A DNA stretch of 64,000 bases from Deltaproteobacteria bacterium. Its GTDB lineage: Bacteria; Myxococcota; JADLHZ01. The stretch's first letter is position 1, and every line of letters starts with the position of its first letter. This document shows, piece by piece, positions 6,897 to 18,048 of this stretch. The notes under the pieces were generated by a model, which saw nothing but the letters and a program-made list of their open reading frames with translations, was not told where the DNA came from and did not search any database. The position numbers and the translations under genes are program-made. The stretch is from positions 32,420 through 96,419 of the forward strand of contig JADLHZ010000047.1 in assembly GCA_020848545.1 (NCBI GenBank), read 5' to 3'.

Positions 6897-8147
6897 ATGC
6901 CGCTCACGGACTACTTGCTGCTCGCCGAGCTCGGCCGCGGCAAAGACGGCCGCGTGCTGAAAGCGATGGGCCCGCGCGGAGTCGTCGCTCTGAAGCTGCC
7001 GCATGGCGACGCGCGGGCGCACTACCGGCACGCGCTCGAAGCCGACTGGTACGAGGCGCTCGCCGGCTGCGACGCCATCCCGGGGCTCATCGAGCGCGGC
7101 GCCCCGAGCGAACCATTCCTCGCGCTACGCTACGCGGCCGGTGGCTCGCTCGTGCGCGCGCGCGTGGGGGACGCCGACCGCGTGGTCGATCGTGTTCGTG
7201 CGTGCTCGGCGGCGTTGCACGCGCGCGGCGTGTACCTGCCGACGCTCGGACCCGATGACGTGCTCCTCGACGACAAGGGCGACGTGCGGCTCTGCGACCT
7301 CGCGGCGGCCGTTCCGCTGACGCCGCTCGCACGCCACGAGCTCGAACCTCTGGCGCCGGCGCTCCGCGGCCGCGGGTGGACCTTCGATCCGCTGCGCGGC
7401 CCCGACGTGGACTTACCGTACGCGCTGCTTCGCCTCGGCTTGCGGGATCGTGCGCGCATGCCGATGGCGCGGCGTCCGGGCGCGTTCTTGCGTGGCGAGG
7501 TCGACGTGCCGGAGCTCGCCGCCGGGGCCGATGTTCACCGCGTCACGTGGGACACGCCAGCGCTCGATGTCACGGCGCTGCTCACGCCCGGCGTGCACTC
7601 AGCGACCGCGAGCGTCGATCTCGCCGCCGCCCTCGCCGCCCAAATCCGCGGCCGCTGCTTCGTCCTCCGGCTGCCGCGCGCCTACACGGACGCGTGGTTC
7701 CTTCCGGTCCTCTTCGAGCAGATCCGCGTCAAAGCCCGCATGCTGCCGGACGCCACCCTGCGCACGCTGCTCCCGCCCTCCCTCGACCCGCTCCTCGCCG
7801 TCCATCACGCCGCCCTCGCCCGCCGCCTCGGCGCCGAAAAGGGACCGGGGAGCGCCGCGAAAAGGGACCGGGGAGAAGGGACACCGGAAAAGGGACCGGG
7901 GAGTATCGCGCCGGGGAGTATCGCGCCGGGGAGTATCGCGCCGGGGAGTATCGCGCCGGGGAGCGACGCGGAGGCGATCGGCGCCATCGCCGCGATCGCG
8001 CCGTGCACGATCGTGCGCCTGGTGCCGCGCGGGCTGGTCGTGGCCCGGCCGCCGGCGGTCGACGGCGTGTGCTGGATCGATGTGACCGAGGCCGACGCGC
8101 TCTTGCATCCGAGCGGCGTCGTGGCGGGGGCTATTTCTTCCCTGTGA
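6897..8147 (+). CDS. Atypical protein-kinase-like protein (paralogue family 1 of 3) with an in-frame tandem-repeat insert
   Basis: Gly-loop-like LGRGKDGRVL, VVALKLP (VAIK-like lysine), DD...VRLCDL catalytic/DFG-like region. ATG 2 nt after the TfoX stop. Shares the ALKVP/ALKLP signature with 12420..13805 and 16624..18048. Confidence 0.55.
   Translation: MPLTDYLLLAELGRGKDGRVLKAMGPRGVVALKLPHGDARAHYRHALEADWYEALAGCDAIPGLIERGAPSEPFLALRYAAGGSLVRARVGDADRVVDRVRACSAALHARGVYLPTLGPDDVLLDDKGDVRLCDLAAAVPLTPLARHELEPLAPALRGRGWTFDPLRGPDVDLPYALLRLGLRDRARMPMARRPGAFLRGEVDVPELAAGADVHRVTWDTPALDVTALLTPGVHSATASVDLAAALAAQIRGRCFVLRLPRAYTDAWFLPVLFEQIRVKARMLPDATLRTLLPPSLDPLLAVHHAALARRLGAEKGPGSAAKRDRGEGTPEKGPGSIAPGSIAPGSIAPGSIAPGSDAEAIGAIAAIAPCTIVRLVPRGLVVARPPAVDGVCWIDVTEADALLHPSGVVAGAISSL
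7836..7975. repeat. In-frame tandem repeats inside the kinase-like CDS: 3 copies of gaaaagggaccgggg followed by 4 perfect copies of the 15-bp unit gagtatcgcgccggg (encoding PGSIA x4)
   Basis: Read directly in the sequence at 7836-7901 and 7901-7960. Confidence 0.85.
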
Positions 8148-8592
8148 TCTTCGCGCCCTTGACGGCGAGGGCGCGCGCGCGCTTGCCGGCGGGGTGCGCG
8201 TTCTTCGGATCGAGCTCGATCGCTTTCTTCAGCAAATCGGCCGCTTCCTGCATGCGCCCGCGGTTCATCAAGAGCTCGGCGAGGTTCGCGAGCACGTAGA
8301 GATCGTTCGGCGCCTTGGCGAGCGCCGCCACGTAGCAACGGATCGCGTCTTCCGGCCGGTTGCTTCGCTGGTACGCCGACGCGAGCCGCGCCTGATGCTC
8401 GCCGAGATCGAAGCCGAGCGCGGCGAGCCCTTCGTAGATCTTGATCGCCGCGCCGTCGTTTTCGGCCTCGTGATGCTTCGCGGCGACCGCGGCGAGGCCC
8501 TTCATGTCCTTCTCGGTCACGCCCACGGCAGACGCGAGCGAAGAAGATCCCTTCGCCCAGGCCTTCAACTTTGCGTCGAGCTCGTTCGCCAC
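8131..8592 (-). CDS. TPR protein of the SycD/LcrH-like class II T3SS chaperone type (153 aa, 3 TPRs)
   Basis: Size and TPR register match SycD (L..L...A......G.YE.A...F..L...D.....LGLA...Q.....AI..Y..A.......P.......AEC.L..G...EA). GTG start. Convergent with the kinase-like gene, 17-bp overlap. Confidence 0.55.
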   Translation of the reverse strand: MANELDAKLKAWAKGSSSLASAVGVTEKDMKGLAAVAAKHHEAENDGAAIKIYEGLAALGFDLGEHQARLASAYQRSNRPEDAIRCYVAALAKAPNDLYVLANLAELLMNRGRMQEAADLLKKAIELDPKNAHPAGKRARALAVKGAKITGKK

Positions 8593-16636: not shown

Positions 16637-18048
16637 AGCACCGCTTCCCGATGCCCACCGGCGCGCGCTGGGGCGACTACACGATCGAGCGCTTCGTCGG
16701 GCGCGGCGTGGAAGGCGCAGTGTACGCCGCGCTCGGTCCCGACGGCGCCCGCGTCGCGCTCAAAGTCCCCTTCGAGAATCCGGCGACGGCGATCCGCTGC
16801 GCGCTCGAGATCGACACGCGCCATCACCTCGCCACGACGCCCGGCACCGAGGCCATCGTCAACCGCTTGATCGCCGGCTCGCCCGAGATCCCGCGCTTCA
16901 TGGCCACGCCGCTTGCGAGCGCAGGCTCGTTGCAGCAGTGGCTCGAGACGCACGGGCCACTCAGCGTCGACGACGCGCTCGCGATCGCACGGACGGTGCA
17001 GGAGCGCGCGATGTGGCTCTTGCAGCACGGCCTTTGGTACTTCGATCTGCGCGCCGACAACATGGTCGTCGAAGACGGGGACGCGCCGCTCGCTTCGCGC
17101 CTGCGCATCGTCGATCTCGGCGCTGCGGTGCCGACCTATCCCTTGTTGCGCTACGAACGCTGGCCCTACTGCCGCGCGCAGACGTTGCCTCCGCGCGGCC
17201 GCGGTTGGTACTACGCGCCCTTCGAAGGCGAGGACTTCTTCCTCCCTTACGCGATGCTGCTTTTTCACCTGCTTACCGGCGCGAGCGCGTTCCCGGTGCG
17301 CCGGCTGCGCAAGGTGATGCTCGGCGTCGAGAAGCTCGTGCTCGACAAGCTCGATCCGCGCTGGCCCACGCCCGTGCGCGACTTTCTCGCCGACATGCTG
17401 ACGCGTGGAACGTGCGCCACGTGGCCTGGCCCGAGCCTCGATCCGGCGACGAACGACTCCGGCGCGCGTGCGTTCCTCGCGTCGGACAGAGCGGTCTGGC
17501 GCGTCGAGGATTCGCCGGCGCTGTTCGTCGATCTCGCCCGCGCCTTCGCGGACACGCAGGCGTTCTCGCGCATCGTGCCGGTGCGGCTGCCGCGCATCCT
17601 CCACGCGCTGCCAGAGCTGCCGCCGACCGCGGTCATCGAGCAGATCCGCGTCCAGTGCCGCTTCTTGAGCGACGGCGCCGTGGCCGAGGAGTTTCGTCCG
17701 GTCCTCGCGAGCATCCAGATGACCTCGGCGCTCGCGCGCTGGACGCCGCTGCTCTTTCACCGCTTGCCCGGCGTTGCGCTCAAGCCGGGTCGTGACGAAT
17801 GGACCGTCGAACGCCAGGTGAGCGAGCTGCGATCGATCCTCTTTGCGTTGGCGAACGGCGCTCCACCGATCCTCGTCATCACGATCTGCGAAGGGCGTTC
17901 GTCACAGCTCGACGCTTTTCTCGATGCTTGGGAGCGCGCCGGTCCGCCCGCCGGCGTGCGCTGGATCGCGGTGCACGGAGCGAACGAAAGTCTGCATACC
18001 CGCACACCTCGCGGCATGCGTTTCACAGTCCCGAATCTGCCACTCTGA
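16624..18048 (+). CDS. Atypical protein-kinase-like protein (paralogue 3 of 3)
   Basis: 474 aa. GRGVEGAVY Gly-loop, VALKVP, FDLRADNMVV, IVDLGAA. The ATG overlaps the GT stop region. Confidence 0.55.
   Translation: MGRIKHRFPMPTGARWGDYTIERFVGRGVEGAVYAALGPDGARVALKVPFENPATAIRCALEIDTRHHLATTPGTEAIVNRLIAGSPEIPRFMATPLASAGSLQQWLETHGPLSVDDALAIARTVQERAMWLLQHGLWYFDLRADNMVVEDGDAPLASRLRIVDLGAAVPTYPLLRYERWPYCRAQTLPPRGRGWYYAPFEGEDFFLPYAMLLFHLLTGASAFPVRRLRKVMLGVEKLVLDKLDPRWPTPVRDFLADMLTRGTCATWPGPSLDPATNDSGARAFLASDRAVWRVEDSPALFVDLARAFADTQAFSRIVPVRLPRILHALPELPPTAVIEQIRVQCRFLSDGAVAEEFRPVLASIQMTSALARWTPLLFHRLPGVALKPGRDEWTVERQVSELRSILFALANGAPPILVITICEGRSSQLDAFLDAWERAGPPAGVRWIAVHGANESLHTRTPRGMRFTVPNLPL

What the first reader, a model, noticed from the sequence alone, without database searches (positions are those of the whole stretch)
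6897..18048. Three paralogous atypical protein-kinase-like genes, each the translationally coupled last gene of a different operon
6897..8147 follows yeaH-spoVR-168aa-TfoXN. 12420..13805 follows an RNI-type LRR protein (TGATG overlap). 16624..18048 follows a GT4 glycosyltransferase. All three share a Gly-loop-like segment, a V[AV]ALK[VL]P lysine motif and a degenerate catalytic/DFG region, then diverge in ~200-aa C-terminal domains. A kinase module recruited to three unrelated operons suggests a modular regulatory or effector role. LRR-plus-kinase combinations are also classic T3SS effector types (YopM/IpaH-like and YpkA-like), which is notable given the translocon-like genes nearby.
Basis: partly seen in the sequence, partly recalled or inferred. 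Interest (0 to 1): 0.7.

Follow-up and report, generated by a model that had tools for sequence, protein, structure and literature searches.

The report
Divergent kinase genes in Myxococcota cluster
Three genes annotated as hypothetical encode highly divergent eukaryote-like protein kinases, two predicted active and one predicted dead, that sit with a leucine-rich-repeat protein and a glycosyltransferase in one gene neighbourhood conserved across a few Myxococcota genomes; this is a modestly interesting lineage-specific signalling module, and nothing points to a secretion-system effector set.

Summary

K2 and K3 keep the full catalytic set (Lys, Glu, Asp, Asn, Asp). K1 has Thr and Asp in place of the catalytic Asp and Asn, as does its ortholog P0036, so it is a predicted pseudokinase.

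The interpretation needs correcting in four ways.
- K1 and K3 are full-length paralogs. Their family has only about 7 representatives among 1.84 billion clusters and includes a shared, unclassified alpha/beta C-terminal domain. K2 belongs to a separate family.
- K2 and K3 are not last genes; same-strand genes follow after 67 and 88 nt.
- The three 'unrelated operons' are one conserved, rearranging neighbourhood. LRR->K2 and GT4->K3 are divergent pairs, accompanied by K1, a TPR protein and a 168-aa protein, next to yeaH-spoVR. This recurs in 5 other contigs.
- I found no type III secretion genes among about 38 predicted window proteins scanned.

Most likely these are cytoplasmic kinases co-produced with partner proteins. 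The function itself is inferred.

The parts
6897..8147 (+). K1, 416 aa (NCBI MCC6808450.1, 'hypothetical protein'). It has a kinase-fold domain plus a K3-type C-terminal domain and is a predicted pseudokinase. Residues: G-loop 13-20, Lys33, Glu48, Thr116 in place of the catalytic Asp, Asp121 in place of Asn, Asp134 at the DFG position.
   Evidence: BLASTP to K3 gives E 9e-26 over 382 aa. Pfam Pkinase gives only E 0.14. hhalign of the K1 family against the K3 family scores 186, E 1.4e-28. Ortholog P0036 shares the Thr/Gly and Asp-Asp catalytic-loop replacements.
12420..13805 (-). K2, 461 aa (MCC6808454.1, 'hypothetical protein'). It is a non-RD kinase domain with Lys41, Glu60, Asp136, Asn141 and Asp158, plus its own roughly 230-aa C-terminal region ending in a Walker-B-like 'VILSIEGYD...LPLLMLVG' segment.
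   Evidence: Pfam Pkinase E 8.8e-5, NCBIfam PknB-type E 4.7e-7. The canonical-kinase HMM scores it 51.9 bits. Orthologs lie directly downstream of an LRR gene in L003 (39% identity) and L006 (25% over the full length).
16624..18048 (+). K3, 474 aa. It is a non-RD kinase domain (about residues 10-263) with Lys47, Glu62, Asp141, Asn146 and Asp164, plus an alpha/beta C-terminal domain (about 265-474).
13805..15475 (-). Leucine-rich-repeat protein, 556 aa from the ATG at 15475, with no evident signal peptide. Its stop codon overlaps the K2 start (TGATG).
   Evidence: LRR_8 E 6.6e-23, LRR_14 E 1.2e-20. Homologs sit upstream of K2-like genes in L003 and L006 and next to the kinases in L004.
15518..16636 (+). 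GT4-family glycosyltransferase, 372 aa. It is divergent from the LRR gene across a 42-nt gap, and its last 13 nt overlap the K3 start.
   Evidence: Glycos_transf_1 scores 45.5 bits and PF20706 GT4-conflict scores 39.8 bits against a cut-off of 26. The same GT4->K3 pairing occurs in L001 and L006, and a convergent GT4 lies next to the K3-like gene in L005.
6446..6895 (+). TfoX_N-domain protein immediately upstream of K1. The likely true start is at 6506 or 6551.
   Evidence: PF04993 E 2.5e-18. This gene is absent from the related loci.
6003..6509 (+). Conserved 168-aa protein of unknown function, the last conserved gene of the yeaH-spoVR unit and a recurrent neighbour of the kinases.
   Evidence: No Pfam match. 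It is 85% identical in L003 and L007, 70-75% in L004, 63% in L008 and about 27% in L006.
8131..8592 (-). Small TPR protein, 153 aa, convergent with K1.
   Evidence: TPR_1, TPR_2 and TPR_7 at E about 1e-13. Homologs lie next to the 168-aa gene in L004 and L008 and twice in L006.
9848..12352 (-). 834-aa protein with no recognisable domain, 67 nt downstream of K2 on the same strand.
   Evidence: No Pfam, PADLOC or PDB sequence match. Two homologs lie in L006 (1040 aa, 27% over 674 aa; 937 aa, C-terminal 63 aa at 40%) beside TPR genes.
3381..6006 (+). yeaH (DUF444-type, 3381-4493) and spoVR (4516-6006), the genes upstream of the 168-aa gene.
   Evidence: The window proteins are 95% (YeaH) and 90.5% (SpoVR) identical to L003 genes that hit DUF444 and SpoVR in Pfam.
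20791..22896 (-). prkA, on the opposite strand and about 14 kb from yeaH-spoVR. The three kinase genes lie between them.
   Evidence: AAA_PrkA E 2.4e-90, PrkA E 4.9e-90.
18136..18960 (+). 274-aa gene downstream of K3 on the same strand. Its N-terminus 'LTLLAAC' resembles a lipoprotein signal.
   Evidence: The gene call comes from related contigs. There is no Pfam match.

Best explanation
K1, K2 and K3 are cytoplasmic, very divergent Hanks-type (eukaryote-like) protein-kinase-fold proteins. They belong to two rare, lineage-restricted families and form part of one conserved Myxococcota gene neighbourhood.

Shown:
- All three have the kinase N-lobe and catalytic core.
- K3 is predicted to have a complete two-lobed kinase fold with a roughly 200-aa alpha/beta domain packed onto it.
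- K2 and K3, and most of their orthologs, keep every residue needed for phosphotransfer, in a non-RD catalytic loop ('YFDLRADN' in K3, 'QMDLHLGN' in K2).
- K1 and its ortholog lack the catalytic Asp and Asn.
- K3 is under purifying selection.

Inferred:
- K2 and K3 are active kinases. Each is made in fixed proportion with the protein encoded just upstream, through overlapping stop and start codons. For K2 that partner is the LRR protein. For K3 it is the GT4 glycosyltransferase here, and a K1-like pseudokinase or an epimerase in other genomes. The partner probably serves as docking scaffold, regulator or substrate.
- K1 is a pseudokinase that binds or regulates K3, as STRAD does for LKB1.
- The module most likely feeds into envelope glycosylation or the starvation and differentiation response of the neighbouring prkA-yeaH-spoVR genes.
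For: Kinase identity:
- Pfam Pkinase hits to profile positions 1-145 for all three.
- A K1+K3 profile retrieves about 30,000 kinases at E <= 0.001, matching profile positions 15-170.
- A canonical-kinase HMM scores K2 at 51.9, K3 at 46.9 and K1 at 21.2 bits.

Catalytic residues.

K1 family loss of Asp and Asn: shared by P0036.

Rarity: 6 full-length matches among 1.84 billion representatives, plus the shorter K1-like P0036, which matched only profile positions 21-246.

Conserved neighbourhood:
- L003: K2-like <- LRR | K3-like -> <- 169aa-SpoVR-YeaH.
- L004: LRR | K1-like -> K3-like | 167aa-TPR.
- L006: K2-like <- LRR | GT4 -> K3-like -> TPR.
- L005: epimerase -> K3-like | GT4.
- L007: K3-like | 169aa.

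Coupling: 1-nt spacer, 1-nt overlap and 13-nt overlap here, and 4-nt overlaps in L004, L005 and L006.

Selection: dN/dS is 0.18 for K3 and 0.15 for GT4.
Against: - None of the three reaches Pfam's gathering score (K3 31.0 against 31.7; K2 22.5; K1 11.9).
- The activation segment and substrate-binding region are unlike known kinases. There is no APE glutamate, and a family-specific 'PLLR[FY]ERWP...PPRGRGW' segment replaces it. Activity and substrate class cannot be read from sequence.
- The gene upstream of K3-type kinases varies between genomes, so GT4 is not an obligate partner.
- Only about 6 related contigs exist, all apparently Myxococcota, so shared gene order may reflect common descent more than function.
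- One K3-family member (P0023) has also lost the catalytic Asp.
- No experiment or expression data exist.
- K1 and K2 were not modelled.
Confidence: 0.55

Rival explanations
1. The cluster is an intracellular conflict or immunity system of the kind Aravind and colleagues predicted for multicellular bacteria. The LRR protein would sense an invader, the kinases would transduce or act as decoys, and the GT4 enzyme would be the effector.
For: - The GT4 protein passes the cut-off of PF20706 'GT4 in conflict systems' (39.8 bits against 26). Its homologs in L001 and L006 carry the same precomputed hit.
- PMC8195603 describes GT4 effectors combined with LRRs and inactive STAND modules.
- The kinases and LRR are only 34-39% identical between the window and L003, while the adjacent YeaH, SpoVR and 168-aa proteins are 85-95% identical.
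- The GT4-K3 segment has dS of 0.11 against 0.016-0.046 in flanking genes, which suggests local allele exchange.
- The closest generic relatives of K1 and K3 include tandem-kinase proteins, one with a TIR domain.
Against: - No STAND, NACHT or other switch NTPase, no effector-associated adaptor domain, and no caspase, TIR or nuclease in the cluster.
- The C-terminal domains have no Walker A motif and no detectable NTPase similarity.
- The GT4 scores higher on the generic Glycos_transf_1 model (45.5 bits).
- PADLOC hits are only generic kinase-domain matches.
- The cluster holds a stable position next to housekeeping genes in several genomes.
- dN/dS of 0.15-0.18 indicates ordinary purifying selection.
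Confidence: 0.2
2. All three are catalytically inert kinase-fold scaffolds. They would bind nucleotide or partner proteins without transferring phosphate.
For: - K1, P0036 and P0023 have lost the catalytic Asp.
- All are non-RD, and the conserved catalytic-loop Lys is replaced by Arg, His or Gly.
- The APE and alpha-F motifs are missing.
- Pfam scores are all below threshold.
Against: - The K3 family (4 of 5 full kinase domains) and the K2 family (3 of 3) retain Lys, Glu, Asp, Asn and Asp together across 25-40% overall identity. That is hard to explain without catalysis.
- 14 of the 16 amino-acid changes between K3 and its 97% relative fall outside the kinase domain.
Confidence: 0.1
3. These are type III secretion effectors. 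They would form a YopM/IpaH-like LRR plus YpkA-like kinase set, exported with the help of the small TPR chaperone and the large translocon-like 834-aa protein.
For: - The cluster includes a 153-aa TPR protein of class II chaperone size.
- It includes a large protein with no recognisable domain and a conserved C-terminal helix, duplicated beside TPR genes in L006.
- LRR and kinase genes are adjacent.
Against: - No type III apparatus family (or any other secretion-system family) among about 38 predicted window proteins scanned.
- The TPR and 168-aa pair occurs in a 39% GC organism between mnmE, deaD and sugar-modifying genes, with no kinase or large protein.
- The 834-aa protein has no match to any solved translocator.
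- One related contig is from a Lake Mendota (freshwater) Myxococcota MAG (L003); the sources of the other contigs were not checked.
Confidence: 0.05

Closest known systems
Bacterial Hanks-type (eukaryote-like) Ser/Thr kinases, e.g. M. tuberculosis PknB and the large myxobacterial kinome
   Different: - The catalytic loop is non-RD ('YFD', 'QMD'), with Arg or His where the loop Lys normally sits.
- DFG is replaced by DLG, DLQ or DLA in the window genes.
- There is no APE glutamate or alpha-F signature, and the activation segment is family-specific.
- There is no transmembrane, PASTA, FHA or TPR output.
- The proteins fall below Pfam's cut-off.
- K1 and K3 carry a novel alpha/beta C-terminal domain.
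Kinase plus pseudokinase pairs such as LKB1-STRADalpha, and tandem kinase-pseudokinase proteins
   Different: No interaction has been shown. In this window K1 and K3 lie 8.5 kb apart. The resemblance is by logic, not by specific sequence relationship.
LRR-kinase combinations: plant LRR receptor kinases, LRRK/ROCO proteins, and Yersinia YopM with YpkA/YopO
   Same: An LRR protein and a kinase are encoded as a conserved, overlapping gene pair (window, L003, L006).
   Different: - These are two separate polypeptides with no transmembrane segment and no Roc-COR GTPase.
- There is no GDI-like or actin-binding domain as in YpkA.
- There is no E3 ligase domain as in IpaH.
- There is no secretion apparatus nearby.
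GT4 glycosyltransferases of predicted conflict systems (Pfam PF20706; Kaur, Burroughs, Iyer and Aravind 2021, PMC8195603)
   Same: The GT4 upstream of K3 passes the PF20706 cut-off and is next to an LRR protein.
   Different: It is not fused to or neighboured by a STAND, NACHT or AP-GTPase module or adaptor domains. It matches the generic GT4 model at least as well.
prkA-yeaH-spoVR (E. coli yeaG-yeaH-ycgB) starvation and sporulation module
   Same: K1 is the last gene of a yeaH-spoVR-168aa-TfoX_N string. K3-type kinases lie beside the 168-aa or SpoVR genes in L003, L004 and L007.
   Different: The kinases are unrelated to PrkA, which is an AAA-type protein. Here prkA sits 14 kb away on the other strand. 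In L006 and L005 no yeaH or spoVR gene is visible in the DNA held, so the link may be positional only.

Membership tests
Protein kinase superfamily, Pkinase (PF00069) | Score at or above Pfam's gathering cut-off (31.7 bits) | tested here: not met
   K3 31.0, K2 22.5, K1 11.9 bits. The K3-like protein of L003 scores 39.7 bits, E 4.7e-10, and P0001 carries a precomputed PF00069 hit. The family straddles the cut-off.
Protein kinase superfamily, Pkinase (PF00069) | Two-lobed protein-kinase fold | tested here: met
Protein kinase superfamily, Pkinase (PF00069) | Catalytic residues: VAIK Lys, helix-C Glu, HRD Asp, catalytic-loop Asn, DFG Asp | tested here: met
   K3 has K47, E62, D141, N146, D164. 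K2 has K41, E60, D136, N141, D158. The feature is not met for K1, which has T116 for Asp and D121 for Asn while K33, E48 and D134 are kept.
Protein kinase superfamily, Pkinase (PF00069) | Phosphotransfer activity | not testable with these tools
   This needs in vitro kinase assays.
K1/K3 family (kinase plus shared alpha/beta C-terminal domain; defined here) | Full-length alignment that includes the C-terminal 'VPVRLP...EQ[IL]RVQxRF...ALLxP' domain | tested here: met
   Met for K1 and K3: BLASTP E 9e-26 over 382 aa, with P0021 to P0024 as full-length matches. Not met for K2: hhalign of the C-terminal domains gives probability 0.2%, and K1 and K3 are absent from K2's top 25 matches.
Type III secretion effector kinases (YpkA/YopO, NleH/OspG type) | Type III secretion apparatus genes in the locus or genome, plus a secretion and chaperone-binding N-terminus | tested here: not met
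   No apparatus family among about 38 predicted window proteins. In all three proteins the kinase G-loop starts within 13-26 residues of the N-terminus. The rest of the genome could not be examined.
Type III secretion effector kinases (YpkA/YopO, NleH/OspG type) | Specific sequence or structural similarity to an effector kinase | tested here: not met
   The best PDB sequence and fold matches are housekeeping eukaryotic and bacterial kinases.
STAND / AAA_16-type NTPase domain fused to kinases | Walker A (GxxxxGK[ST]) and Walker B motifs, and an HMM match | tested here: not met
   No Pfam or PDB sequence match for the K1/K3 C-terminal domain even at E <= 10, and no Walker A motif in any member. 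K2 and its L006 ortholog end in a Walker-B-like 'hhhh[ED]xxD' strand. That is a resemblance, not a test.
GT4-centred conflict systems (PF20706 context) | GT4-conflict HMM match | tested here: met
   39.8 bits against a cut-off of 26, with the same family on record for the L001 and L006 homologs.
GT4-centred conflict systems (PF20706 context) | Linkage to a switch NTPase (STAND, AP-GTPase, MoxR-vWA) or adaptor domains, as described in PMC8195603 | tested here: not met
   None found in the window cluster or in L003 to L006.

The most novel reading that the evidence does not exclude
The LRR->K2 and GT4->K3 divergent pairs, together with the K1 pseudokinase, form a previously unrecognised bacterial intracellular surveillance system. 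A fast-evolving LRR sensor and a kinase-pseudokinase decoy pair would control a glycosyltransferase effector. This would be a prokaryotic counterpart of plant LRR-kinase and tandem-kinase immunity, using a new alpha/beta regulatory domain, possibly a P-loop domain that has lost its nucleotide site.
Probability: 0.12. Interest if true: 0.75.

Novelty: new variant of a known kind. Interest (0 to 1): 0.4.

Why it matters
Myxobacteria are known for very large sets of eukaryote-like kinases, so another divergent kinase is not a surprise. Three points are new here.

First, there are two extremely rare kinase families. The K1/K3 family has about 7 cluster representatives among 1.84 billion, and the members with public names (K1, K2) are annotated 'hypothetical protein'; the others carry no name. 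It carries an unclassified C-terminal domain.

Second, the K1/K3 family has a conserved active and dead pair of forms.

Third, the kinases are repeatedly coupled, by overlapping genes, to an LRR protein and a GT4 glycosyltransferase, beside the poorly understood prkA-yeaH-spoVR starvation module.

If the partner-coupling idea holds, the cluster offers a compact bacterial model for kinase-pseudokinase and LRR-kinase signalling, and a lead on what the yeaH-spoVR-168aa genes do. If the conflict-system reading holds, it would add a new type of immune module. In either case the sequences would extend kinase family models that currently miss these proteins.

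Tried and rejected
- Word-indexed homolog searches with K3, with K1+K2+K3 and with the six-member family alignment returned only the window's own proteins, the 97% relative and generic kinases. The exhaustive HMMER search was needed to find the family.
- The first structure model, built on an alignment padded with generic kinases, left residues 264-474 below pLDDT 50. It was replaced by the six-sequence family alignment.
- Fold searches on the whole model returned only kinases, so the C-terminal domain's fold class could not be determined. 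The AlphaFold-database library was not available.
- I considered that the C-terminal domains are degenerate AAA_16 or STAND NTPase domains. Nothing supports this: no Pfam or PDB hits, no similarity between the K2 and K3 C-terminal domains, and the nearest generic kinases carry second kinase domains, TPR, TIR or Ig domains, not AAA_16.
- The alignment-based genome scan failed with six sequences and gave one locus with four. The metagenome scan with kinase patterns found nothing.
- The terminator and promoter scan was uninformative: 19 terminator-like sites against 13.3 +/- 3.4 expected, none in the relevant gaps.
- PADLOC gave only generic kinase-domain matches.
- The 834-aa protein had no PDB sequence match.
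- Whether K2 is a specific sister of K1 and K3 remains open. hhalign scores K2 family against K3 family at 116.7 over 180 columns, and K2 family against canonical kinases at 131.8 over 134 columns. HMM scores are asymmetric.
- A literature search for the prkA, yeaH and spoVR genes in Myxococcus returned nothing useful.

Full report
**1. What is in the sequence**

The window has about 67% GC, and third-codon-position GC identifies the real reading frames. The three genes are K1 6897-8147 (+, 416 aa), K2 12420-13805 (-, 461 aa) and K3 16624-18048 (+, 474 aa). K2 lies inside a longer mechanical ORF.

- K1 follows yeaH (3381-4493), spoVR (4516-6006), a 168-aa gene (6003-6509) and a TfoX_N gene (E 2.5e-18).
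- K2 follows an LRR protein (13805-15475, LRR_8 E 6.6e-23).
- K3 follows a GT4 glycosyltransferase (15518-16636, Glycos_transf_1 E 7.7e-12).

The junctions are TAA-G-ATG for K1, TGATG for K2, and a 13-nt overlap for K3.

Only K1 is a terminal gene. K2 is followed after 67 nt by an 834-aa gene on the same strand. K3 is followed after 88 nt by a 274-aa gene that gene callers also found in related contigs. No terminator-like site lies in either gap.

**2. Are they kinases?**

Pfam Pkinase matches all three below its cut-off: K3 31.0 bits against 31.7, K2 22.5, K1 11.9. In each case the match covers only profile positions 1-145.

Stronger evidence comes from profiles.
- A K1+K3 profile searched against 1.84 billion representatives matched about 30,000 proteins at E <= 0.001, through positions 15-170. 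All ten of those that I scanned with Pfam were Pkinase proteins.
- An HMM I built from 17 canonical kinases scores K2 at 51.9, K3 at 46.9 and K1 at 21.2 bits.

Alignment with canonical kinases gives these catalytic residues.

| Protein | VAIK Lys | Helix-C Glu | HRD Asp position | Loop Asn position | DFG Asp |
|---|---|---|---|---|---|
| K3 | K47 | E62 | D141 | N146 | D164 |
| K2 | K41 | E60 | D136 | N141 | D158 |
| K1 | K33 | E48 | T116 | D121 | D134 |

All three have canonical GxGxxGxV loops. K2 and K3 are non-RD kinases ('QMDLHLGN', 'YFDLRADN') and lack the APE glutamate. K1 is a predicted pseudokinase. Its ortholog P0036 in contig L004 has the same kind of loop ('YSTGLGADD' against 'YLPTLGPDD' in K1), so the dead form is conserved and not a recent decay.

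**3. Are they paralogs?**

K1 and K3 are. BLASTP gives E 9e-26 with 32% identity over 382 aa, reaching well into the C-terminal domain. hhalign of the K1 family against the K3 family scores 186.

The exhaustive search found six full-length matches: the K3 and K1 representatives and P0021 to P0024. The shorter K1-like P0036 matched only profile positions 21-246. Generic kinases follow.

The shared C-terminal domain spans K3 residues 265-474. The predicted secondary structure has four beta strands (291-295, 316-322, 416-422, 445-451) alternating with helices, with a mainly helical stretch (about 332-410) between the second and third strands, and the conserved motifs are 'VPVRLP', 'EQ[IL]RVQxRF' and 'ALLxP'. 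It has no Pfam or PDB sequence match even at E <= 10.

K2 is different.
- Its similarity to K3 (E 2e-12) covers only the kinase domain.
- Its similarity to K1 is marginal (E 0.011).
- Its best matches among the fetched proteins are generic kinases.
- Its C-terminal region is unrelated to that of K1 and K3 (hhalign probability 0.2%).

K2 has its own orthologs, in L003 (39% identity) and L006 (25% over the full length). Some unusual features after the DFG position are shared by both families ('...P...P-x-[RK]-G-x-x-W', and the '[FY][ILM]AT' hinge). Profile scores do not show that K2 is closer to K3 than to canonical kinases. I therefore treat them as two families.

**4. One neighbourhood, not three operons**

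The related loci are arranged as follows.

| Locus | Source | Arrangement |
|---|---|---|
| L003 | Lake Mendota Myxococcota MAG | K2-like <- LRR, then K3-like ->, then <- 169aa-SpoVR-YeaH |
| L004 | Logan assembly | LRR, then K1-like -> K3-like (4-nt overlap), then <- 167aa-TPR |
| L005 | GCA_034680565.1 | epimerase -> K3-like (4-nt overlap), then convergent GT4 |
| L006 | Logan assembly | two 834aa-like genes and a TPR, then K2-like <- LRR, then GT4 -> K3-like -> TPR, then a distant 168aa homolog |
| L007 | JGI metagenome | K3-like, then <- 169aa-SpoVR |

The LRR->K2 and GT4->K3 units are a conserved divergent pair, separated by 42 nt here and 54 nt in L006. K1-type and K3-type genes can be adjacent. 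The whole set stays close to the TPR and 168-aa genes and often to yeaH-spoVR.

In this window prkA (20791-22896, minus strand) lies 14 kb from yeaH-spoVR, with the kinase cluster in between.

The TPR and 168-aa pair also occurs in a 39% GC organism beside mnmE, deaD, an epimerase and glycosyltransferases, with no kinase (L008). That pair is therefore older and more widespread than the kinases.

**5. Evolutionary behaviour**

Between the window and L003, YeaH is 95% identical, SpoVR 90.5% and the 168-aa protein 85%. K3, K2 and LRR are only 38%, 39% and 34% identical.

Against the 97% relative (L001 and L002), K3 and GT4 have dN/dS of 0.18 and 0.15, which indicates purifying selection. Their dS is 0.11, compared with 0.046 and 0.016 in the flanking genes. 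Fourteen of the 16 K3 amino-acid changes fall at residue 360 or later. The genes are functional, but the segment is locally more diverged, possibly through recombination. The counts are small.

**6. Mechanism**

These points are shown: the kinase fold for K3, and kinase-domain homology for all three; intact catalytic residues in the K2 and K3 families; a conserved dead K1 form; overlapping-gene coupling to upstream partners; and no evident signal peptides or membrane segments.

These points are inferred. K2 and K3 are active cytoplasmic kinases made stoichiometrically with a partner protein, LRR for K2 and GT4 or a K1-like protein for K3. K1 is a pseudokinase regulator of K3. The output relates to envelope glycosylation or to the prkA-yeaH-spoVR starvation response. 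My confidence in this package is about 0.55. Kinase identity alone is about 0.9.

**7. Rivals**

- Conflict or immunity system (0.2). The GT4 passes the PF20706 cut-off, the LRR and kinases diverge fast, and PMC8195603 describes GT4 and LRR conflict systems. However, no switch NTPase, adaptor or classical effector is present.
- Inert scaffolds (0.1).
- Type III secretion effectors (0.05). No apparatus genes were found among about 38 predicted window proteins. There is no similarity to effector kinases. The TPR protein has a housekeeping-type distribution.

**8. Verdict**

This is a new variant within a well-known superfamily. It consists of two very rare kinase families with an unclassified C-terminal domain and a conserved LRR, GT4 and pseudokinase neighbourhood. 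K1 and K2 are annotated as hypothetical proteins. Interest is moderate, at 0.4.

Noticed in passing
window 3381-6509 and 20791-22896: prkA is separated from yeaH-spoVR by about 14 kb and lies on the opposite strand. From general knowledge, these three genes are usually adjacent. The kinase, LRR and GT4 cluster occupies the gap, as if inserted or inverted into the module.
   Followed up: partly
window 6003-6509; L003 3601-4110; L004 3370-3873; L007 887-1396; L008 10001-10498: A 168-aa Lys/Glu-rich protein with no Pfam family is very conserved: 85% identity across Myxococcota contigs and 63% in a 39% GC organism. In L004 and L008 it sits directly beside a small TPR protein. It looks like an undescribed conserved gene pair.
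   Followed up: partly
window 9848-12352 (-); L006 3-2015 and 2617-5739: An 834-aa protein has no Pfam, PADLOC or PDB match. It has an internal Gly run and a conserved C-terminal helix of about 60 aa. Two homologs in L006 flank a TPR gene.
   Followed up: partly
window 7896-7963: A perfect 15-nt tandem repeat of 4.5 copies (100% matches) lies inside K1 and encodes (PGSIA)n. It falls in the C-terminal domain where K3 has its only low-confidence loop. It may be a recent expansion, a length-variable linker or an assembly artefact.
   Followed up: no
window 46368-48502: A fourth, canonical Hanks-type kinase (Pkinase E 5e-37) with a C-terminal PEGA domain is followed by an overlapping TPR-protein gene.
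   Followed up: no
window 15518-18048 compared with L001 and L002: The GT4-K3 segment has synonymous divergence of about 0.11 from a closely related strain. The flanking 274-aa and 347-aa genes show 0.046 and 0.016. This hints at local recombination or allele replacement. The counts are small.
   Followed up: partly
window 18136-18960: The 274-aa gene downstream of K3 starts 'MTAAKTYAIALTLLAAC', which resembles a lipoprotein signal peptide. It has no Pfam match.
   Followed up: no
window 39536-42652 (-): A 1038-aa protein carries its M32 carboxypeptidase domain only in residues 543-1034. The roughly 540-aa N-terminal extension has no Pfam match.
   Followed up: no
window 8599-9837 (+): A roughly 412-aa protein between the TPR gene and the 834-aa gene has only a faint N-terminal Sulfatase-family match (E 0.005). 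Its start codon is uncertain, because the mechanical ORF begins at 8194 and overlaps the TPR gene.
   Followed up: no
proteins P0025-P0057 (closest generic relatives of the K1+K3 profile): All ten of the best non-family matches that I scanned with Pfam carry two Pkinase stretches in one chain. Among them, individual proteins also carry TPR, Ig-like or TIR domains, or a faint, below-cut-off match to the ternary-complex-associated domain TCAD9 (29.7 bits against 40).
   Followed up: partly
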